Source: a virus
Length of the DNA stretch: 64,000 nt
IMG/VR virus record: IMGVR_UViG_3300023110_000006
Strand: one strand, 5' to 3'
The notes beneath the pieces were generated by a model. The model was not told the origin of the DNA. It saw only the letters and a list, made by a program, of their open reading frames with translations, and did not search any database. The position numbers and the translations under genes were made by a program. The stretch's first letter is position 1. Each line of letters begins with the position of its first letter. Below, one piece after another: positions 39,980-61,970 of this stretch.

Positions 39980-40285
39980 TTAAATTCCTAACATTGTTTT
40001 CAAAGCCGGCCCTTTTGGCAAATATATTTTTGTTCCTGCTTCTATATCAAAAACAGGATCTTTAATTGTATCCATATTTCTTTGTGCAAATACCCACCAT
40101 AATTTTGTAGTGCCATATAAATCATAAGCTAATAAATCTGGACGGTGTGTGTATTGAGTTTCTATTTCATAAAGTACATCATCTGCTTCAGCAGGCACTG
40201 GTCTAATCGAAAAAACTCCTAGATAGTCATTTCCTACTTTAGGTGTATTTTTCCAAGGACTTGAAGCACTATAACTTGCAGGCAT
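39980..40285 (-). CDS. baseplate wedge gp53-like (LysM-type) protein
   Basis: HRPDLLAYDLYGTTKLWWVFAQRN...IYLP. Confidence 0.85.
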   Translation of the reverse strand: MPASYSASSPWKNTPKVGNDYLGVFSIRPVPAEADDVLYEIETQYTHRPDLLAYDLYGTTKLWWVFAQRNMDTIKDPVFDIEAGTKIYLPKGPALKTMLGI

Positions 40286-41142
40286 TATATCATTCCATTA
40301 TTACTAATTAATTTTCCACTTACAAAATCTTGTAGTGTAAATTTTTCTATATGTGTTCTACTGTAAATTGGTTGTACAGTAACAGCAATTAAACTTTGTG
40401 AAGGTACCCAGGTTCCTGGTTTTGTTTGATTTCCTGGAGTATCTGTTTCTCCCTCAATATCTGTTTTTAGATAATCAACATCTTGCGGCATATCAATATT
40501 AAAACCTGTTACTACACATGGTACATTTTTAAACACATATTCACCATAACCATTAAGTTTTGTAATAGGTGGCGGATTTCCTGTGTTAGCTCCATTGTCT
40601 CCATAAAACATTTTAGTCAATGTTCTTAAGAATGTAACTGCGGCTACCCAATATTTTGCATCTGTGTTGTTTTCAATAAAAAAGTCACCACTAATTGTAA
40701 TTGCATCCACAGATGATGTTTGATAATTAAAAAAAGGATAATTAGTATGTACAGGTTGCATTGAGTTGTAGCTTGCAGAGTGTGAAAATATTATCGAAGG
40801 AGTAAAAGGAAATATCATTCTGTTACCAGTTCCGTCTGTTCCGAGAGGTTTTAATAATTCACTGTTAAGTTCTTGTAATACTGGAGGTACAGATAAACTT
40901 ACACGCCAATCGTTGTCGCCAGCATCATCTATAACCAATGCAGTTGTTGTAGTACGTTCTTCAGGCACACCATTAGCAGGTAAATTCCTACTGCGTACAG
41001 ATCTCATGTATCCAGCGGCTTCGCCAGTAAATTTAGCAACTTTATTTGCTTTTTCTGAAATTGCACCCTGCAAAACACCACGTGCATCTCTAGCTATTTG
41101 TACACCAGGCTTGTTAGGATCTGCGTCTTTAAATGTTGGCAT
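40285..41142 (-). CDS. tail tube initiator / baseplate-tube junction protein (gp48/gp54-like)
   Basis: FPFTPSI, PPPITKLNGYG...VPCVVTGF tube-fold pattern; context. Confidence 0.55.
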   Translation of the reverse strand: MPTFKDADPNKPGVQIARDARGVLQGAISEKANKVAKFTGEAAGYMRSVRSRNLPANGVPEERTTTTALVIDDAGDNDWRVSLSVPPVLQELNSELLKPLGTDGTGNRMIFPFTPSIIFSHSASYNSMQPVHTNYPFFNYQTSSVDAITISGDFFIENNTDAKYWVAAVTFLRTLTKMFYGDNGANTGNPPPITKLNGYGEYVFKNVPCVVTGFNIDMPQDVDYLKTDIEGETDTPGNQTKPGTWVPSQSLIAVTVQPIYSRTHIEKFTLQDFVSGKLISNNGMI

Positions 41143-41165
41143 AATTATTTTACTCCTAGTAGTAT

Positions 41166-41171
41166 TATTTA
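41166..41171 (-). promoter_or_regulatory. late promoter TAAATA for the baseplate operon
   Basis: 24 nt upstream of the 41142 start, ahead of an AGGAG RBS. Confidence 0.6.
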
Positions 41172-41172
41172 G

Positions 41173-41201
41173 TTGACTTTTTAATGTACGTATATTATAA
41201 T
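41173..41201 (+). promoter_or_regulatory. sigma70 promoter TTGACT-N17-TATAAT for gp55
   Basis: -35 at 41173-41178, -10 at 41196-41201. Confidence 0.85.
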
Positions 41202-41226
41202 AAGGCTATAAAACGGAAAGAGGAAT

Positions 41227-42057
41227 ATGAGAAAAACAAATTACTTAAACAATAAAGACATATTAGCAGAAATACATAAATCAAAAAATACGTTTAATAG
41301 TTATACAGATCCAGAATATGGATATTTTGATATTATTTTACCAGACGTGTCTAAAATAAACATAAGAACTATTGCAGAAGCAAAAAGAAATAAAGCAAAA
41401 AAATTAAGCACACAAGCGTTTGAACAAGCAAAAGCTCAGGGTAAAAAAGTAAAACAAGCAGATTGTGCTATAGATTACAAAAAAATTGACAAAAATGAAT
41501 TAATTTTTAGAATTATGACTTACGAACATATTCCTGAAGAGCCAGGACGTAAGAAAAATCCAAAAACTGTAGCAGATACAAAAGTAAAATTAAATTTTCC
41601 GCCTTTCCAGCACTACAAATTCAATGACGACAATGAATTAATAGTAGTTGGAAAAAGCCATTGGCAAGGAGGCATGGAAAATGGCCATTTTTCACTTACG
41701 CACGGCCAAGCAACAAATAAACTTGCTATGATGTGGATGAAATTGTGTGATCGTTATGCTACAAGAGGTAATGTAAGAGGATATACTTACAATGATGAAA
41801 TGCGAGGACAAGCAATACTGCAATTAGCACAGATTGGATTGCAGTTTGACGAATCTAAAAGTAACAACCCGTTTGCTTACTACACAGCGGCAGTCACAAA
41901 CTCATTTGTACGTGTTATCAACCTTGAAAAACGTAATCAGAACATTAGAGACGACATCCTTGAAATGAATGATATGAACCCAAGTTATACTAGACAGCAT
42001 CAAGGCGAATGGGAAGCAAGTGTTAGACGCGAAAAAGAAGCGGCAGAGGCAAAATAA
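41227..42057 (+). CDS. late transcription sigma factor gp55-like
   Basis: NYLNNKDIL, RGYTYNDEM, FDESKSNNPFAYYT, EKRNQNIRD. Confidence 0.85.
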   Translation: MRKTNYLNNKDILAEIHKSKNTFNSYTDPEYGYFDIILPDVSKINIRTIAEAKRNKAKKLSTQAFEQAKAQGKKVKQADCAIDYKKIDKNELIFRIMTYEHIPEEPGRKKNPKTVADTKVKLNFPPFQHYKFNDDNELIVVGKSHWQGGMENGHFSLTHGQATNKLAMMWMKLCDRYATRGNVRGYTYNDEMRGQAILQLAQIGLQFDESKSNNPFAYYTAAVTNSFVRVINLEKRNQNIRDDILEMNDMNPSYTRQHQGEWEASVRREKEAAEAK

Positions 42058-43127: not shown

Positions 43128-44900
43128 ATGCTAAAAATAAAAGATTTAACAGTAAAGAATTTTATGAGTGTGGGTAATCAAACCCAAGCTGTTGATTTTA
43201 ACAAACAACAACTAACACTCGTGCTTGGTGAAAACTTAGATCAAGGAGGTGATGATTCTGGATCACGTAACGGTACAGGCAAAACTACAATAATCAATGC
43301 ATTATCGTATGCACTGTATGGCCAAGCATTGACCAACATCAAACGGAACAATCTTATTAATAAGACTAATTCTAAAGGGATGTTGGTCACCCTACATTTT
43401 GAGAAAGATGGACAAGACTACAGAATTGAGCGCGGACGCTCTCCCAATGTTTTGAAATTCTTTATCAATAATGAAGAGCAAGAACTAATTGATGAATCTC
43501 AAGGTGACAGCCGCAAGACCCAAGAGACTATCAATAGCTTGCTAGGTATGAGTCACGATATGTTTAAACATGTCGTGGCTCTTAATACCTATACTGAACC
43601 TTTTTTATCATTGCGGCAAAATGATCAACGTGCAATTATTGAACAACTTTTAGGCATTACAATACTAACTGAAAAAGCAGAAATACTTAAAGAACAGATC
43701 AAACAAACAAAAGATGCAATTACGGAAGAAACTGCAAAAATTACAGGTATACAAACTGCTAACGAAAGAGTACAAAGTACTATCACTAGTTTACAAGGAA
43801 CACAACGGGCTTGGCAAGCAAAGAAAAAAGCAGATGAAGAAAAACTTGCACAATCAATTGACGAACTAGAACATTTAGATATAGACAAAGAATTAGATGC
43901 ACATGAAAAACTAGCCAATTGGACAGAAATGAACAATGCTATTATGGCTCTTAACAAAGAAAAAAGCACACTAGAGAGTGCATTACTACGTGCTAACAAG
44001 TCTGTGGAAAAAGCAGAAAAAGACATCGCAAATCTAGAAGATGCTACTTGTTATACATGTGGACAAGCACTACATGATGATAAAAAAGCTGAATTAGAGA
44101 CACGTAAAACTAAAGAACTAGAAGATGCACTTGCATACCAAACAGAAGTAGCAGACAAACTTGAAGATGTTGTTAAAGGACTAAATGAAATTGGTGATAT
44201 TAACGGAAGACCTAACACATTTTACGAAAGTGCAAAAGAAGCATATGAGCATAGACAGAATGTTGATAGCTTAAAACAAGCATTAGAAAACAAAACCAAC
44301 GAAGATGATCCGTATGCAGAGCAAATTAAAGAATTAGAAACAACTGCACTACAAGAAATAGATTGGCAGGCTGTAAACACACTAGATACATTTAAAGAAC
44401 ACCAAGAATTTTTATTAAAATTACTGACAAACAAAGATAGTTTTATACGTAAGAAAATTATTGATCAGAATCTTGCATATTTGAACAATAGACTTACACA
44501 TTATTTAGATAAACTAGGACTTCCTCATCAAGTTGAATTCCAAAATGATTTAAATGTACAAATTACACAACTTGGACAAGACTTAGACTTTGATAACTTG
44601 AGTCGAGGTGAGAGAAATAGACTTATACTTGGTATGAGCTTTTCATTCCGAGATGTATGGGAAAGTTTGTATCAAAATATTAACTTGTTGTTTATTGATG
44701 AGCTTATTGATAGTGGTATGGACACAGCTGGTGTAGAAAGTTCATTAGCAGTAATCAAGAAAATGGGTAGAGAATTACAGAAAAATGTATTCCTCATCTC
44801 ACACAAAGATGAACTTGTAGGTAGAGTAAATCATGTTATGAAAGTTATTAAAGAAAACGGATTTACATCGTATGAAAATGATATAGAGATAGTAGAATGA
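43128..44900 (+). CDS. recombination ATPase subunit gp46 (Rad50/SbcC-like)
   Basis: Walker A NGTGKTT, CYTC zinc hook, LSRGE signature, FIDE Walker B, ISH. Confidence 0.93.
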   Translation: MLKIKDLTVKNFMSVGNQTQAVDFNKQQLTLVLGENLDQGGDDSGSRNGTGKTTIINALSYALYGQALTNIKRNNLINKTNSKGMLVTLHFEKDGQDYRIERGRSPNVLKFFINNEEQELIDESQGDSRKTQETINSLLGMSHDMFKHVVALNTYTEPFLSLRQNDQRAIIEQLLGITILTEKAEILKEQIKQTKDAITEETAKITGIQTANERVQSTITSLQGTQRAWQAKKKADEEKLAQSIDELEHLDIDKELDAHEKLANWTEMNNAIMALNKEKSTLESALLRANKSVEKAEKDIANLEDATCYTCGQALHDDKKAELETRKTKELEDALAYQTEVADKLEDVVKGLNEIGDINGRPNTFYESAKEAYEHRQNVDSLKQALENKTNEDDPYAEQIKELETTALQEIDWQAVNTLDTFKEHQEFLLKLLTNKDSFIRKKIIDQNLAYLNNRLTHYLDKLGLPHQVEFQNDLNVQITQLGQDLDFDNLSRGERNRLILGMSFSFRDVWESLYQNINLLFIDELIDSGMDTAGVESSLAVIKKMGRELQKNVFLISHKDELVGRVNHVMKVIKENGFTSYENDIEIVE

Positions 44901-45163: not shown

Positions 45164-45374
45164 TATAACAGACGACATACATGACCAATTGACAAAGGCA
45201 TACTTAGAATACTTCAAGGCAAATGAAAAGTTTGAAGCACGTAACTCAGTGAGAACGCACAAAGAAGTACGAAGATGGTTAAGAACTATCCGTACTTTAG
45301 CTAAAACACGGATGGAAGAGATTCATGTGCATCATAACACAACTCGAAAAACCAAATCAGACGTAGATTCTTAA
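45156..45374 (+). CDS. small helical protein, possibly Hc1 (histone H1-like) related
   Basis: ANEKFEARNSVRTHKEVRRWLRTIRTLAKTRMEEI resembles the Hc1-type helical hairpin; weak similarity. Confidence 0.45.
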   Translation: MSDITDDIHDQLTKAYLEYFKANEKFEARNSVRTHKEVRRWLRTIRTLAKTRMEEIHVHHNTTRKTKSDVDS

Positions 45375-45394
45375 TAGGCCAGGGTAAGTACCAC

Positions 45395-45829
45395 ATGCAA
45401 TGGACTTATCAAGGAAAACAAGTGACAGAAATACCAGAAGGTATTGAAGGATTTGTTTACTTGATAACAAATCTTACAAATAATAAAAAGTATATAGGCA
45501 AAAAACTAGCAAAGTTTAAAAAAACCCGTCCTCCATTAAAAGGACGGAAAAATAAACGCAGATCTAAGGTAGAATCAGATTGGAGAGACTATTGGGGATC
45601 TTCAGATAAACTAATAGCAGACGTAGAACAACTAGGCCAAGACAAATTTAGCAGGGAAATACTGTATTATTGTAAAAGTAGAGGCGAATTATCATATTTA
45701 GAGGCTAAAGAACAGTTTGCCCGTGAAGTATTGTTGAGTGATGAGTATTATAACGGGATTATTAATGTAAGGGTAGGCGGTTCTAAGATTTTAAGAGAAA
45801 ATTTAAAGGCACACAAGGACACTGTTTGA
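45395..45829 (+). CDS. GIY-YIG endonuclease (T4 EndoII/DenA-like) with Lys/Arg-rich insert
   Basis: GFVYLITNLTNNKKYIGKK, YWGSS, FSREIL, LE (metal Glu) and YYN (Asn). Confidence 0.8.
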   Translation: MQWTYQGKQVTEIPEGIEGFVYLITNLTNNKKYIGKKLAKFKKTRPPLKGRKNKRRSKVESDWRDYWGSSDKLIADVEQLGQDKFSREILYYCKSRGELSYLEAKEQFAREVLLSDEYYNGIINVRVGGSKILRENLKAHKDTV

Positions 45830-46137
45830 TCTAGATAGCTAGATCCACCTTGAGTAGCAGGAAACTGCATCAGAACTGGTGAGTCCAACAGGCTGTATGC
45901 TACGAAAACCCCTTAGCACTAGGAACGAAGCGGGGGATAGCACTTTAATTTATAAAGTGTGATGTCGACGTAGGTTGGGAAAGGTTAGAGCCCAGTAGCA
46001 TAGTCAAATACCTACTTCCGATCTCGGCTGAGCGAACTCACATGAAGTTTTCGAGATGATGGAACCGCTAGTAGGTTCCGTCTGACTAAACAATCTACAT
46101 GAAGTTACAACAATATCACTACGTGATATTGCTTTTT
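45812..46137 (+). ncRNA. unidentified large structured RNA (multi-stem, pseudoknot); boundaries approximate
   Basis: GC-enriched non-coding gap with at least 8 helices, a GAAA tetraloop, and crossing helices 45896-45903/45995-46002 and 45970-45975/46010-46015. Confidence 0.75.
46111..46137 (+). terminator. intrinsic terminator
   Basis: caatatcac-tac-gtgatattg followed by cttttt. Confidence 0.6.
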
Positions 46138-46228
46138 AATTAAATAGTTTAGTTTGAGCGCAAGCGAAAACTTATATCTACGAAGTAGATATACTAAATA
46201 CACTTATAAAACGTTTTAGGATGATAAC

Positions 46229-46876
46229 ATGCGTGTAACAGATATTACAGAACAACAAATCAACGAAGCACCAACTAGTAGACTTGGAAATTTCGCCAAA
46301 AAAATAGGTGCAAAAGCCGCAGGTGCTGTAGGTATGTCAGGAACAGCTGGACGACTTGGTGGCGGTGCAGAAGTAGGAACAAAAGCAAACGAATTATACA
46401 AATCACTTGCAAGATGGCAAGGTATTAACGGCAAAAATGATAAAAACATGACAGCGGCTGATGTTAAAGCATGGGCGGCTCAGGACAAAGTTAATGTAAG
46501 CGCAGTTCAAATGCCAAATGGTGTACTTCCTAAAAATAAATTAATGGATATTATGAAAAAAGTTGCGGCTAGTGAATTAACTGGCGGTAACGTAGGTGCA
46601 GAACCGGCATCTAAAGCGCAGGCCACACCGCAGAGCGGTGGTGGAGGAGCTATTAGCAAAGCAATTGACGCCCTACAAAAAACAACAGGTAAGGCTGGTG
46701 TAAACAATACTCCGGGTAATGCAGTTCCTGCATCTGATGAAGCAGGTTCAAAAGCAAATCAACAACCTGCAAACGTTAAAGATTTAAAAAACAAAGAAGG
46801 TATTCCACCTAACATTCAAACTATGTTAGATAAACTTACTCCTACAGAGAAAAAAGCACTTGCAGGAGCAATATAA
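46229..46876 (+). CDS. putative internal head protein (Ala/Gly/Lys-rich)
   Basis: TAAATA at 46195-46200; N-terminal ITE/INE motifs like T4 gp21 cleavage sites. Confidence 0.5.
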   Translation: MRVTDITEQQINEAPTSRLGNFAKKIGAKAAGAVGMSGTAGRLGGGAEVGTKANELYKSLARWQGINGKNDKNMTAADVKAWAAQDKVNVSAVQMPNGVLPKNKLMDIMKKVAASELTGGNVGAEPASKAQATPQSGGGGAISKAIDALQKTTGKAGVNNTPGNAVPASDEAGSKANQQPANVKDLKNKEGIPPNIQTMLDKLTPTEKKALAGAI

Positions 46877-52521: not shown

Positions 52522-54270
52522 ATGAGTTGGAAAAAATATTTTACACCAGTGCCAACAGCTGATAACTTAGGGGGAAGTTTCAGTCCTTTAGGTGGCGGTA
52601 AAAGAGGCGGTGGTGCTACAGCAGGACCAGCAAGGTCAAATTATAACAGTTATCTACCAGATGTATATGTAGGTAGTCCAAATCGTGTAGAGCGTTATGG
52701 ACAATACAATACAATGGATTTAGATTCAGAAGTAAATGCCGCACTAGACATTTTAGCAGAATTTTGCTCCCAAAAAAATACACAAAACAAAACTCCATTC
52801 CTATTAGATTTTAAAAAGAAAGCAACTAATTCAGAAACTACTATTCTACAACAGTATCTTTTACAATGGTGTAAAGTACAAAATTTTGAAACACGTATGT
52901 TTAGAATTATGCGTAATGCATTTAAATATGGCGATCAATTTTTTATTAGAGATCCAGAAACAAAAAAATTATTTCATGTAGATCCAGCAAACGTTGTTAG
53001 GATTATTGTAAATGAAAGTGAAGGAAAAACACCTGAACAATATGTAATTAAAAATTTTAATTTAAACTTTGCTGACATGGTAGCAACAACTCCTCATCAA
53101 ACTAACGGAAATGTTACTGGTGGAGGAGATGGTTACTTAACAGGCGGTGTCAGAGGAATGGTAGGACAAGCACCTACGCAAGCTGGTAGCAGATTTCAAC
53201 AAGGTGAAAATGAAATAACTATAGATGCAAAACATGTAGTTCATTTAAGTTTGTCAGAAGGCTTAGACAACAATTTTCCATTTGGTAATTCACTATTAGA
53301 AACAATTTTTAAAGTATACAAACAAAAAGAATTATTAGAAGATGCGATTATTATCTATCGTGTCCAACGTGCACCAGAGCGCAGAGTATTCTACGTTGAT
53401 GTGGGCAACATGCCTTCACACCTTGCTATGCAGTTTGTGGAGCGTGTTAAAACGGAAATACACCAAAGACGTATCCCATCGTCGACAGGTGGCGGTACAA
53501 ATGTCATAGACAGTTCATATAATCCACTGTCAATCAATGAAGACTACTTCTTCCCACAAACTGCGGAAGGTAGAGGATCTAAAGTTGAAACACTTCCAGG
53601 CGGTACTAACCTAGGAGAAATTGATGATCTTAGATACTTCACTAATAAACTTGTACGCGGGTTACGTATACCTAGCTCGTACTTACCAACTGGAGCGGAT
53701 GATTCAGCTTCACAATATAATGATGGGCGTGTTGGTACTGCATACATTCAAGAACTTAGGTTTAACACATACTGTGAAAGACTTCAAGGACTTCTTGTAG
53801 AAGATTTAAATAACGAATTTAAAAGATATCTTTTAGAAAAGGGTGTAAACATTGATACAGCAATGTTTGACATTAGATTCCAACCGCCACAAAACTTTGC
53901 GGCTTATAGACAAAGTGAAATTGATAATGCACGTATTCCAACATTTACTCAAATGAGTGCAATACCATACATATCTAATCGTTTTGCTATGAAACGTTTC
54001 TTAGGATTAAGTGAAGAAGAGCTTGCAGAGAATGAAAGACTATGGCGAGAGGAAAATGATGAAAACCTACAACCACTACCAACAGATGCGGCAGGTGAAA
54101 TGCGCGGAGCAGGTATAAGCAGTGCAGGTATTGATGCTGACATGTCTGGAATGGATGCAGAAGTTCCAGGAGGTGATGCACCAGTTGATGGAGGAACAGG
54201 AGAAGGCCCAGAAACCGCTACAGGAGATGCAGGCGCACCAGCAGAAGGAAATACTGACGTAACAGTATAA
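52522..54270 (+). CDS. portal protein gp20
   Basis: LLEDAIIIYRVQRAPERRVFYVDVGNMP, EDYFFP, GRGSKVETLPGGTNLGEIDDLRYF. Confidence 0.95.
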   Translation: MSWKKYFTPVPTADNLGGSFSPLGGGKRGGGATAGPARSNYNSYLPDVYVGSPNRVERYGQYNTMDLDSEVNAALDILAEFCSQKNTQNKTPFLLDFKKKATNSETTILQQYLLQWCKVQNFETRMFRIMRNAFKYGDQFFIRDPETKKLFHVDPANVVRIIVNESEGKTPEQYVIKNFNLNFADMVATTPHQTNGNVTGGGDGYLTGGVRGMVGQAPTQAGSRFQQGENEITIDAKHVVHLSLSEGLDNNFPFGNSLLETIFKVYKQKELLEDAIIIYRVQRAPERRVFYVDVGNMPSHLAMQFVERVKTEIHQRRIPSSTGGGTNVIDSSYNPLSINEDYFFPQTAEGRGSKVETLPGGTNLGEIDDLRYFTNKLVRGLRIPSSYLPTGADDSASQYNDGRVGTAYIQELRFNTYCERLQGLLVEDLNNEFKRYLLEKGVNIDTAMFDIRFQPPQNFAAYRQSEIDNARIPTFTQMSAIPYISNRFAMKRFLGLSEEELAENERLWREENDENLQPLPTDAAGEMRGAGISSAGIDADMSGMDAEVPGGDAPVDGGTGEGPETATGDAGAPAEGNTDVTV

Positions 54271-60870: not shown

Positions 60871-60918
60871 TACGTTCAGCCTACGGGCCGGAAGTAGCAT
60901 TAAGCGAAGGAACGCACC
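60871..60918 (+). promoter_or_regulatory. glutamine riboswitch aptamer (glnA-motif type)
   Basis: P1 CGUUC/GAACG, P2 GCC-UACG-GGC, E-loop GGAAGUA.../GAAG, P3 GC-AUUAA-GC; begins just after TAAATA at 60861-60866. Confidence 0.8.
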
Positions 60919-60943
60919 TAAACTTTAACAAAGGGAGGGTGAT

Positions 60944-61099
60944 ATGAACTTTAAATGGGATTTAAAGAAACCCTTAGCAGATCTTAAACGTAAAATAAGC
61001 ACAAGTGCAGTACTACGTAAACGCTCAAAAGACAGCATTGCAAGACCTAAGGCCGAAAAAAATATACTATCTAAAGACTCAAGAATGCAAAAAATTTAA
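60944..61099 (+). CDS. unannotated 51-aa basic peptide MNFKWDLKKPLADLKRKISTSAVLRKRSKDSIARPKAEKNILSKDSRMQKI
   Basis: Strong GGGAGG RBS, directly downstream of the riboswitch; below the ORF track cutoff. Confidence 0.8.
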   Translation: MNFKWDLKKPLADLKRKISTSAVLRKRSKDSIARPKAEKNILSKDSRMQKI

Positions 61100-61118
61100 T
61101 TTTTTGGTAAAAAAGAGG

Positions 61119-61147
61119 TTGACATTTAGATAATAGTTTGCTATATT
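61119..61147 (+). promoter_or_regulatory. sigma70 promoter TTGACA-N17-TATATT for the ncRNA
   Basis: The predicted +1 (about 61154) coincides with the 5' strand of the RNA closing helix. Confidence 0.75.
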
Positions 61148-61153
61148 AGTAAC

Positions 61154-61372
61154 ATAAGCAACAAGAGAGTAATTAACTTTTGTTTTTTAGTGCATCGAAG
61201 AGGCTCTTACCAGAGGGTCGAAGATGGCTAGTTAGGGGTGGTACCCAGGCATGGTTGCAGAAATGCGTTGTGTCACATCGCTCTACCGAGCGGAACTAGG
61301 CGCCCGGGATTCAGACAGGTATCTGCGTCGAAGGGTTGTAGGTGAAACCGAGTCCTACCTAAAATTGCTTAT
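61154..61372 (+). ncRNA. standalone ~220-nt structured RNA, possibly manA-motif related
   Basis: Closing helix ATAAGCAA/TTGCTTAT, two TACC-loop and two GGTA-loop hairpins, a GAAA tetraloop and a GTAGG/CCTAC stem; own promoter and terminator. Confidence 0.8.
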
Positions 61373-61380
61373 TATCTTTT

Positions 61381-61414
61381 AAGGTTTACAAAGGAGACTT
61401 TGTAAGCCTTTTTT
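61381..61414 (+). terminator. intrinsic terminator of the ncRNA
   Basis: aaggtttacaaag-gaga-ctttgtaagcctt followed by tttt. Confidence 0.88.
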
Positions 61415-61423
61415 CATTTGTGA

Positions 61424-61523
61424 TAAATACTTGTGTCAGGTAGTGTGCCGCGAGGCGGACTTATGGGGAACCAACCCCGTAGCACCTAGAACGTGCATCG
61501 GACTTCTATAAAGGAGAAAACAA
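61424..61523 (+). promoter_or_regulatory. late promoter plus structured 5' leader
   Basis: TAAATA at 61424-61429, then three hairpins (GCC-GCGA-GGC; TATGGGG/CCCCGTA; GCAC/GTGC) before AAGGAG. Confidence 0.65.
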
Positions 61524-61970
61524 ATGGGAAGACCACTTAATAAAAGATACTTCGGCGAACCAACTGCCGGAGGTAATGAAATCAAATGCGATTTTCATAA
61601 CGGGACAGCAGTTGTTGAAGGACACATTGTTCGTCAAAAAGGTAGTAAGAAATTCGTAGTAGCAGAAATCGGTGCATCAGACACTGAATACACTTGCACA
61701 TTAACAACAGGTAAACTTATGTCAGCACTAGCGGCTGGTGAAATGGGTATCACTATGTTAATGGATGATTCAGAAACATATCAAGTTTCTAAAATCACTG
61801 GACGTAAAGCAACACTAGTTGCTCCAGATGCAACAGGAACAAACGCTTATGACGGCAAGTCAGTAGCTTGGAACTTTGACGCAGATCTAACTGATGGCGG
61901 CGCACAAGTTGAAGAAGCTGGTGATGACGATACAGCAGGCGTTGATGATGACGATTTTGCTAACGCATAA
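61524..61970 (+). CDS. hypothetical protein, probably virion-associated (148 aa)
   Basis: Strong RBS, late promoter, MGRPLNKRYFG start. Confidence 0.75.
   Translation: MGRPLNKRYFGEPTAGGNEIKCDFHNGTAVVEGHIVRQKGSKKFVVAEIGASDTEYTCTLTTGKLMSALAAGEMGITMLMDDSETYQVSKITGRKATLVAPDATGTNAYDGKSVAWNFDADLTDGGAQVEEAGDDDTAGVDDDDFANA

What the first reader, a model, noticed from the sequence alone, without database searches (positions are those of the whole stretch)
45385..46137. GIY-YIG nuclease gene joined to a ~300-nt pseudoknotted RNA: candidate nuclease-RNA system
Seen: the 400-nt gap after the nuclease gene is GC-enriched and densely base-paired. Helices include CAAGG/CCTTG (45814-18/45848-52, starting inside the last codons), GATCTAG/CTAGATC over the stop codon, GCAG-GAAA-CTGC, GCACTTTA/TAAAGTGT, ATCTCG/CGAGAT enclosing TGAG-CGAA-CTCA, and GATGGAACC/GGTTCCGTC. 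Two helices cross (45896-45903 with 45995-46002; 45970-75 with 46010-15), forming a pseudoknot. ACATGAAGTT is repeated at 46040 and 46097. The unit is bounded by a late-promoter-like TAAGTA 4 nt before the ATG and by a terminator at 46111-46137. The protein has a very basic insert (KKLAKFKKTRPPLKGRKNKRRSK). Known: a structured RNA overlapping a nuclease gene's 3' end is the layout of TnpB/omegaRNA systems. I do not recognise this RNA as a known family. Inference: a ribonucleoprotein (RNA-guided or RNA-regulated GIY-YIG nuclease), a new ribozyme, or a replication-primer RNA beside gp46/47.
Basis: partly seen in the sequence, partly recalled or inferred. Interest (0 to 1): 0.85.

Follow-up and report, generated by a model that had tools for sequence, protein, structure and literature searches.

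The report
Twin-box phage RNA beside homing nuclease
The gap after a small nuclease gene of this uncultured marine T4-like phage encodes a real, knotted non-coding RNA, common in such phages and absent from RNA catalogues, that carries one 7-letter word twice; the nuclease is a frequent but dispensable neighbour, and the RNA's job is still unknown.

Summary
Window 45828-46137, probably on to 46193, is a conserved, pseudoknotted non-coding RNA on the + strand. It starts at the stop codon of a 144-aa SegE-type GIY-YIG gene (45395-45829).

Homologous RNAs were found in over 140 viral contigs. No Rfam family matches this sequence. Sister RNAs at the same position begin with the orphan Rfam motif Polynucleobacter-1 and share this RNA's 3' half.

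The most striking feature is two same-sense 7-mers (46040-46046 and 46097-46103) that flank a hairpin. They are identical within every RNA (54 of 54 aligned) but differ between RNAs. I found no complementary partner.

The RNA-guided-nuclease reading is not favoured:
- The RNA occurs without the nuclease gene.
- The nuclease family occurs without the RNA, after nrdB and beside endolysin genes in cultured phages.
- In one contig a PD-(D/E)XK nuclease takes its place.

Most likely this is an autonomous phage RNA gene with homing-endonuclease genes lodged beside it. Its function is unknown. A self-addressing RNA:DNA grip is my leading guess and is not shown. This scan had already met the family in more than 20 other genomes.

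The parts
45384..45390 (+). Conserved GTAAGTA motif 4-7 nt before the nuclease start codon (possible promoter -10 or translation signal)
   Evidence: Present in 13 of the 19 start regions printed (window and 18 loci); function not tested.
45395..45829 (+). 144-aa SegE-type GIY-YIG endonuclease gene (catalytic domain only)
   Evidence: Pfam PF19835, E 1.5e-35, covering the whole 123-position profile. 54-79% identical homologues with invariant motif residues. More than 576 relatives in viral contigs.
45828..45882 (+). 5' module: hairpin over the stop codon (45828-45845), then helix CACC/GGTG (45846-49/45878-81) enclosing a variable hairpin (45857-68)
   Evidence: Compensatory variants seen (TCGAG/CTCGA; CGCT/AGCG; CTCC/GGAG). 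Present in a subset of RNAs and in class 2.
45896..45903 (+). 5' strand of the pseudoknot helix; pairs with 45995-46002
   Evidence: 8-bp perfect complement. More than 12 covarying sequence types across RNAs.
45909..45936 (+). Helix with strong covariation (45910-12/45933-35 and 45916-17/45930-31) around the invariant GGAACGARG loop
   Evidence: C-G, U-A and G-C exchanges at three pairs, with 16, 8 and 20 double changes.
45940..45960 (+). Variable-length hairpin; 0-70 nt inserted in relatives
   Evidence: Alignments.
45964..46028 (+). Core domain: closing helix 45964-68/46024-28, helix 45970-75/46010-15, capping hairpin 45976-79/45991-94 with a conserved 11-nt loop, and the 3' strand of the pseudoknot (45995-46002)
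   Evidence: 99%, 100% and 94% of cells paired for the three helices, with G-C/G-U/A-U and U-A/C-G changes.
46040..46046 (+). Box 1: 7-mer ACATGAA, preceded by ACTC
   Evidence: Identical to box 2 in 54 of 54 aligned RNAs; 8 different words within class 1.
46058..46082 (+). Hairpin between the boxes (9 bp, variable loop), followed by the invariant GTCTGAC
   Evidence: 99.2% of cells paired. Every class has a stable hairpin here.
46097..46103 (+). Box 2: the same 7-mer, preceded by ATCT
   Evidence: The next base (8th) agrees in only 23 of 54.
46111..46137 (+). Terminator-like hairpin plus T-run
   Evidence: Consensus scan. The sequence varies but the hairpin is kept.
46152..46193 (+). Two further conserved hairpins. 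The first (46152-71) has tandem G-A pairs and a GNNA loop (GAGCGNNAGCGA). The second (46173-93) is variable.
   Evidence: The stem covaries (GTTT/AAAC, GTGTT/AACAC). The motif occurs once in the window. It travels with the RNA even when the next gene is on the other strand.

Best explanation
Window 45828 to about 46137-46193 is a gene for an autonomous, structured non-coding RNA of a large family of aquatic T4-like phages, the 'twin-box' RNAs. Some classes of this family begin with the orphan Rfam motif Polynucleobacter-1. The GIY-YIG gene in front of it is a free-standing SegE-type homing-endonuclease gene lodged beside this conserved RNA gene. It is probably read on the same transcript. It is not the RNA's obligate partner.

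Shown: the RNA fold, the family, the linkage and its exceptions, and the rule that the two boxes are identical.

Inferred: the RNA is a rigid pseudoknotted scaffold whose 3' tail presents one 7-nt word twice, on either side of a hairpin. The two boxes change only together and no third complementary site exists nearby. Their reader is therefore most simply something that changes automatically with them, namely the complementary DNA strand of the gene itself. Box 1 in the RNA could pair with template DNA at box 2, anchoring the transcript to its locus. I give that specific step about 20%.
For: Real RNA:
- Six helices carry compensatory changes: 97.1% of cells paired against 33-46% for slid controls.
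- The pseudoknot helix has more than 12 sequence types.
- G-U pairs make the fold strand-specific.
- There is no ORF.

Family:
- nhmmer finds the RNA in 57 of 80 nuclease-anchored loci and about 85 of 118 loci from a 14-mer scan.
- Other classes share the 5' hairpin, the twin boxes and the tail hairpins.
- L026 carries RF01718 at 59.4 bits and matches this RNA's 3' domain.
- Weinberg 2010 placed that motif downstream of a gene family related to PSSM2_218. Its published flanks show twin boxes too.

Separability from the nuclease:
- RNA without the GIY-YIG gene.
- A PDDEXK_15 nuclease in its place.
- A second GIY-YIG gene inserted in L165.
- GIY-YIG without the RNA.

Boxes:
- 54 of 54 identical over 7 nt, against a mean of 28.9 and a maximum of 36 for permuted partners.
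- More than 15 different words across classes.
- Only the twin column shares full mutual information with each box column.
- No complement within about 3 kb either side.

Metatranscriptome contigs from three salt-marsh runs bridge the nuclease 3' end and the RNA 5' module. This is weak evidence because DNA carry-over is not excluded.
Against: - In the gp46 context the nuclease gene is almost always present: 116 of 128 RNA loci with room upstream. That is unusually constant for a selfish gene and would also fit a functional tie.
- No transcript ends, strand or abundance are known.
- The RNA:DNA grip has no direct support. A terminator-like hairpin follows box 2 within 8 nt, which sits awkwardly with a primer role. 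GC skew turns at about 41 kb, not at the RNA.
- Predicted accessibility of the boxes is unremarkable: 0.60 and 0.40 unpaired against 0.44 overall.
- A distant trans partner cannot be excluded, because only 6-15 kb per locus was searched.
Confidence: 0.6

Rival explanations
1. RNA-guided or RNA-regulated GIY-YIG ribonucleoprotein. The catalytic-domain-only nuclease has no DNA-binding domain and borrows specificity from the RNA, with the boxes acting as short guides.
For: The nuclease is only the GIY-YIG domain. The RNA starts at its stop codon. Co-occurrence is about 90% in the gp46 context. An unrelated nuclease occupies the same slot in L150, which could mean an exchangeable effector.
Against: The RNA occurs without any nuclease gene nearby in several phage types. 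Close GIY-YIG homologues of the same length and with the same basic insert work in loci with no RNA. There is no long variable guide segment. No box-complementary site was found.
Confidence: 0.08
2. Self-processing RNA (ribozyme). The conserved knotted core cleaves, or cleaves and rejoins, at the two equivalent box sites and so removes or releases the hairpin between them.
For: There are many invariant unpaired nucleotides and a pseudoknotted core, as in ribozymes. Two identical sites flank a discrete hairpin.
Against: No known ribozyme or group I model matches even at E up to 10. No internal guide complementary to the boxes exists. No contig joins box 1 to box 2 in four RNA libraries, though contigs are a weak test.
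Confidence: 0.1
3. Trans-acting antisense or sponge RNA. The scaffold displays two copies of a 7-nt seed that pair with a target RNA, or titrate a small RNA, encoded elsewhere in the phage or host.
For: Seven nt is a typical seed length, and duplicated seeds occur in known bacterial small RNAs (general knowledge). Box 1 is mostly unpaired in thermodynamic folds.
Against: A third partner would need three coordinated changes each time, yet more than 15 words exist. The complementary 7-mer is under-represented in the window (10 against 17.8 expected), and the sites inspected lie inside ORFs, not at gene starts. No link to the nuclease start region was found.
Confidence: 0.12
4. DNA-level signal. 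Direct repeats flanking an inverted repeat form slipped or cruciform DNA that structure-specific nucleases (GIY-YIG, PD-(D/E)XK, gp46/47) cut, to start recombination-dependent replication or to create a recombination hotspot.
For: The locus sits next to gp47-gp46 (SbcCD-like) and a nuclease gene. Direct repeats around a hairpin are the classic slipped-strand substrate (general knowledge).
Against: Long-range pseudoknot covariation and frequent G-U pairs (U-G in 50 of 54 at one pair) fit an RNA of one strand, not duplex DNA. No alleles with one or three units were seen among about 146 loci.
Confidence: 0.07
5. A purely cis-acting 3' untranslated region. A stack of stable hairpins ends the early operon and protects the nuclease mRNA from 3' exonucleases.
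For: It lies at the end of a + strand gene block, has a terminator-like hairpin and three more hairpins. RNA-library contigs run from the gene into the element.
Against: About 70 invariant nucleotides, a conserved pseudoknot and the twin-box rule far exceed what a stabiliser needs. The element also occurs behind unrelated genes.
Confidence: 0.06

Closest known systems
Polynucleobacter-1 RNA motif (Rfam RF01718; Weinberg et al. 2010, Genome Biol 11:R31, PMC2864571)
   Same: Same genomic slot. Weinberg noted the motif downstream of genes related to cyanophage locus PSSM2_218, which I take to be this GIY-YIG family (not tested). RNAs carrying it (L026) share the twin boxes, the terminator and the GA/GNNA hairpin, and match this RNA's 3' domain by nhmmer. 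Its function is also unknown.
   Different: The window's RNA gives no RF01718 hit even at E up to 10. Its 5' half is a different fold (helices at 45896-46028). The catalogued motif covers only about 141 nt, and I found no mention of the twin boxes in the paper's text on this motif or its Rfam entry.
T4 Seg free-standing GIY-YIG homing endonucleases (SegA-G; SegB lies in the T4 tRNA gene cluster; from general knowledge)
   Same: The nuclease is a full match to the SegE GIY-YIG domain. Relatives are annotated as homing endonuclease or GIY-YIG_SegABCDEFG and sit at several unrelated sites. A nuclease gene lodged beside a conserved RNA gene recalls SegB.
   Different: It is only 144 aa, with no recognisable C-terminal DNA-binding domain. 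In the gp46 context it is nearly fixed rather than sporadic. Cleavage and homing are untested.
OMEGA systems (TnpB or IscB with omega RNA; HEARO)
   Same: A structured RNA abuts or overlaps the 3' end of a small nuclease gene.
   Different: A different nuclease fold, no transposon ends seen, no 16-20-nt variable guide, and RNA and nuclease are separable.
ColE1 RNA II replication primer (works-like analogy only; general knowledge)
   Same: In ColE1 an upstream segment of a folded transcript pairs with template DNA further downstream to fix an RNA:DNA hybrid. That would require two same-sense copies of one sequence in the RNA, as seen here.
   Different: No hybrid, RNase H site or origin activity is shown. 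A terminator follows box 2. The skew minimum is 5 kb away.
DRT2 reverse-transcriptase ncRNA (rolling-circle template with short repeats for template jumping; general knowledge)
   Same: Short identical motifs bracket a structured template segment in a scaffolded ncRNA.
   Different: No reverse transcriptase lies nearby. The unit length is not a multiple of 3 in 67 of 91 RNAs, and those have no open concatemer frame.

Membership tests
Polynucleobacter-1 (RF01718) | Match to the Rfam covariance model at or above 37 bits | tested here: not met
   No hit in window 45200-46400 even at E up to 10, nor in the whole window at the gathering score. Sister RNA L026 scores 59.4 bits.
Polynucleobacter-1 (RF01718) | Location downstream of the GOS11034 / PSSM2_218-like gene | tested here: inconclusive
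   Same slot behind the GIY-YIG gene as in L026. The equivalence of GOS11034 with this gene family rests on Weinberg's note and was not tested.
Twin-box phage RNA superfamily (uncatalogued) | Two identical same-sense 7-mers after CTC and ATCT, flanking a stable hairpin, followed by a terminator-like hairpin and a GA/GNNA hairpin | tested here: met
   46040-46 and 46097-103, hairpin 46058-82, 46111-31, 46152-71. The same layout occurs in all classes.
SegE-type GIY-YIG homing endonuclease | GIY-YIG catalytic domain with conserved motif residues | tested here: met
   PF19835, E 1.5e-35, over profile positions 1-123. Invariant residues include Y22, Y33, G35, E103 and N120.
SegE-type GIY-YIG homing endonuclease | C-terminal DNA-binding domain and site-specific cleavage with homing | not testable with these tools
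   Only about 20 residues follow the catalytic domain.
SegE-type GIY-YIG homing endonuclease | Free-standing gene found at different genomic sites | tested here: met
   After gp46, after nrdB, beside endolysin genes or an NrdB-like gene in cultured phages, and as an extra copy inserted in L165.
OMEGA (TnpB/IscB plus omega RNA) | RuvC-type nuclease (TnpB or IscB) | tested here: not met
   The only Pfam hit is the GIY-YIG domain.
OMEGA (TnpB/IscB plus omega RNA) | Obligate pairing of RNA and nuclease, with a long variable guide at one RNA end | tested here: not met
   Each occurs without the other. The coordinated variable segments are only 7 nt.
Group I intron / known ribozymes | Match to Rfam intron or ribozyme models | tested here: not met
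   cmscan with permissive filters lists only chance-level hits to CRISPR repeats and small RNAs. There is no interrupted host gene.
DRT2-type rolling-circle template RNA | The repeat unit gives an endless ORF when concatenated; a reverse transcriptase gene is adjacent | tested here: not met
   67 of 91 units are not multiples of 3 and have no open concatemer frame. No reverse transcriptase gene was recognised among the neighbouring gene clusters, most of which were not annotated.

The most novel reading that the evidence does not exclude
The twin boxes are a self-addressing device. Because the RNA carries the same 7-mer twice, box 1 of the finished scaffold can pair with template-strand DNA at box 2. 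This locks the transcript onto its own locus as a structured R-loop, which would then prime replication or recruit the neighbouring nucleases and gp46/47 to start recombination-dependent replication. It would be a new kind of phage origin RNA, and the only reading found here that explains pairwise box covariation without a third partner.
Probability: 0.15. Interest if true: 0.85.

Novelty: new variant of a known kind. Interest (0 to 1): 0.6.

Why it matters
Large, strongly conserved RNAs with ribozyme-like complexity and no known function are rare, and each one solved so far has revealed new biology. This family is abundant in uncultured marine and freshwater T4-like phages. Only a fragment of one class has been catalogued, as an orphan motif since 2010.

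The strict rule that two same-sense 7-mers stay identical is a kind of covariation that ordinary RNA pairing does not explain. It points to a reader not yet identified, such as DNA of the same locus, a template-jumping polymerase or a symmetric partner. It also gives a clean experiment: change one box, then both.

The finding also cautions against reading every nuclease gene followed by a structured RNA as an RNA-guided system.

Tried and rejected
- Rfam at gathering and permissive thresholds on the window gave nothing in the gap. ARAGORN found no tRNA or tmRNA.
- I looked for a cis partner for the boxes. The exact reverse complement within the loci showed no consistent position. With G-U allowed, one bin had 13 of 118, traced to the unrelated pseudoknot strand. 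No third column in the alignment covaries with the boxes.
- In the window, the complementary 7-mer is not enriched, and a near-11-mer match at 52972 lies antisense inside the portal gene.
- The start region of the nuclease gene does not track the box.
- Whole-contig 11-mer searches gave only the gene itself, plus one AT-rich palindrome inside a long ORF, judged to be chance.
- An endless ORF from concatenated units is rejected.
- Laying contigs of four metatranscriptomes showed no joint between the boxes and no usable ends. Absence in contigs proves nothing.
- The GC-skew minimum is at about 41 kb, where gene orientation flips, not at the RNA.
- Predicted box accessibility was uninformative.
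- The boxes are not faster-evolving than the core within class 1, so diversifying selection is not indicated.
- The nearest held virus record (G001) does not contain the locus.
- The 9-bp complement 46045-53/46165-73 is specific to this window and not conserved.

Full report
**What is there**

The window comes from a T4-like phage. gp46 (SbcC-like, 43128-44900) is followed by two small ORFs and a 144-aa ORF (45395-45829). That ORF matches the whole Pfam SegE GIY-YIG domain (E 1.5e-35). Next comes a 400-nt stretch with stop codons in every + frame and raised GC. The next gene starts at 46229.

Rfam finds manA, glutamine-riboswitch and freshwater-2 RNAs elsewhere in the window. It finds nothing in the gap, even with permissive filters. 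There is no tRNA or tmRNA. A single-sequence fold is only modestly better than shuffles (z = -2.35 on +, -1.84 on -), so I turned to comparison with relatives.

**The RNA is real**

The nuclease protein retrieved 80 viral contigs (more than 576 exist). An nhmmer profile of the gap found the same element directly 3' of the nuclease gene in 57 of them. A scan for an invariant 14-mer of the element, blind to the nuclease, retrieved 118 more loci, about 85 of which hold the element.

In an alignment of 54 non-redundant copies (A1), 29 tested base pairs are 97.1% paired, against 33-46% when partners are slid. Seven pairs carry double changes and 57 cells are compensatory, a count that no shuffle of 500 reached.

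The long-range helix 45896-903/45995-46002 is too variable to align, so I tested it sequence by sequence. Own partners give -11.7 kcal/mol, swapped partners -7.6 and shuffled ones -6.1. More than a dozen distinct complementary pairs occur.

Frequent G-U pairs (U-G in 50 of 54 at one position) make the fold specific to the + strand and typical of RNA.

- CAAGG/CCTTG is replaced by a covarying CACC/GGTG helix.
- ATCTCG/CGAGAT exists only in some lineages and competes with a universal helix 45964-68/46024-28.

A terminator-like hairpin follows at 46111-31. Two further conserved hairpins follow at 46152-93. The first has tandem G-A pairs and a GNNA loop.

**The twin boxes**

Its first seven bases (46040-46 after ACTC; 46097-103 after ATCT) are identical in all 54 aligned RNAs, although eight different words occur. 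All 15 RNAs with a non-majority word agree between their two copies. The eighth base agrees in only 23 of 54. Permuting partners gives a mean of 28.9 matches and at most 36.

Other RNA classes in the same slot have quite different cores but the same layout, each with its own word present twice (for example AGATAAT, GCATGAT, AGGTAAT, GGTGAAG, GGATGAT). So do copies in other phage types (ACATCAA, ACAGAAA) and the published flanks of the Polynucleobacter genome copy. Of 149 loci with the element, 146 show the pair; the other three are cut by contig ends.

Only the twin column shares full mutual information with each box column. No complementary 7-mer sits at any consistent place within about 3 kb. 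Within class 1 the boxes evolve no faster than the rest of the RNA, so they behave like the two strands of a helix, except that they have the same sense.

**Relation to known RNAs**

One sister RNA (L026) begins with the orphan Rfam motif Polynucleobacter-1 (59.4 bits). Its 3' part matches my class-1 profile. Weinberg et al. (PMC2864571) recorded that this motif lies downstream of a gene family resembling cyanophage locus PSSM2_218, and they found no function.

The window's RNA is therefore a new class within a superfamily of which only one 141-nt fragment is catalogued. I found no mention of the twin-box module in what I read of that paper.

**Relation to the nuclease**

Linkage is strong in the gp47-gp46 context. 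Of 141 nuclease loci with room downstream, 113 show twin boxes; several of the misses are variant forms. Of 128 RNA loci with room upstream, 116 have the nuclease. The linkage is not obligatory, however:
- The RNA core stands with no GIY-YIG gene nearby in podovirus-like and other contigs (L082, L096, L132, L154, L169, L177).
- In L150 a PDDEXK_15 nuclease fills the slot.
- In L165 a second GIY-YIG gene has been inserted between the first one and the RNA.
- Conversely, 73-76% identical nuclease genes follow nrdB with no RNA (L065 and Methylophilales phage Melnitz).
- Relatives 44-50% identical in cultured Synechococcus and Sinorhizobium phages are annotated as homing endonucleases, sit beside endolysin genes or an NrdB-like gene, and are followed by only 29-88 nt.

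This is the behaviour of free-standing homing-endonuclease genes gathering next to a conserved gene. It is not the behaviour of a guide-effector pair.

**Expression**

Contigs from salt-marsh metatranscriptomes hold the region. In three separate runs an error-free 330-340-nt contig bridges the nuclease 3' end and the RNA 5' module. Short core pieces reach word depth 80, and one contig runs from 46080 into the next gene. DNA carry-over cannot be excluded. Contigs show neither ends nor strand. No joint between the boxes was seen.

**How it may work**

Shown: a scaffold closed by a pseudoknot, with about 70 invariant positions, and a 3' tail of the form box - hairpin - box - hairpin.

Inferred: identity without conservation implies reading by base pairing or by copying, not by a protein. 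Pairwise rather than three-way covariation implies that the partner changes automatically with the boxes. The complementary DNA strand of the gene itself fits this. Box 1 in the RNA could pair with template DNA at box 2, in the manner of the upstream segment of ColE1 RNA II. I rate this at about 15-20%. It is weakened by the terminator right after box 2 and by the GC-skew minimum lying at about 41 kb.

I tested and rejected a DRT2-like endless ORF. I found no trans target in the window or in two long contigs. Ribozyme, sponge, DNA-signal and plain 3'-UTR readings remain as lower-ranked rivals.

**Earlier notes**

After reaching these conclusions I consulted the scan's earlier notes. The same family had been met in more than 20 other genomes, with matching verdicts: a real RNA, twin boxes, a link to Polynucleobacter-1, and a nuclease that is separable. 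One note proposed the replication-primer reading. These notes agree with my results but are not independent evidence.

**Verdict**

This is a new class of an only fragmentarily catalogued phage RNA family. Its function is unknown, and the twin-box rule makes it directly testable.

Noticed in passing
window 45384-45390 and the same place in L002-L077: A conserved GTAAGTA motif lies 4-7 nt upstream of the GIY-YIG start codon in 13 of the 19 start regions printed. The spacing would fit a -10-like element giving a nearly leaderless mRNA, or an unusual ribosome-binding signal.
   Followed up: partly
L165:1380-2230: A second, unrelated GIY-YIG gene on the opposite strand is inserted between the usual nuclease gene and the RNA. 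A duplicated 3' fragment of the first nuclease gene (residues 110-142) lies beside it. This looks like a footprint of homing-endonuclease invasion.
   Followed up: partly
L150 (reverse strand, about 1700-2300 nt upstream of its RNA): A 184-aa PDDEXK_15 (PF24608) endonuclease gene replaces the GIY-YIG gene between the gp46 block and the twin-box RNA.
   Followed up: partly
window 45525-45548, minus strand: A terminator-like hairpin with a T-run lies on the minus strand, inside the nuclease gene, exactly over the codons of the basic insert (KTRPPLKGRK).
   Followed up: no
window 46142-46147: TAAATA, the late-promoter-like hexamer, sits 4 nt before the GA/GNNA hairpin. Similar A/T-rich hexamers precede that hairpin in several, though not all, of the relatives aligned. 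The last two hairpins might therefore belong to a separate late transcript.
   Followed up: no
L020-L022, L032-L035 (about 180 nt between the nuclease stop and the RNA core): Some class-1 RNAs carry an extra 180-nt 5' segment in place of the window's 5' module. It holds a 95-codon antisense ORF shared by 13 loci, which may be a spurious ORF across another RNA domain.
   Followed up: no
window 60871-61526: A glutamine riboswitch (RF01739), manA RNA (RF01745) and freshwater-2 RNA (RF02980) lie in tandem within 660 nt.
   Followed up: no
window about 40000-42000: The cumulative GC- and AT-skew minimum and a switch from minus- to plus-strand genes lie about 5 kb upstream of the RNA.
   Followed up: no
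L199-L227: Contigs carrying this phage nuclease and RNA are binned into genome assemblies of many unrelated phyla (Marinimicrobia, Pacearchaeota, Saccharibacteria, Bifidobacterium and others). These are most likely phage contigs mis-binned into those assemblies.
   Followed up: no
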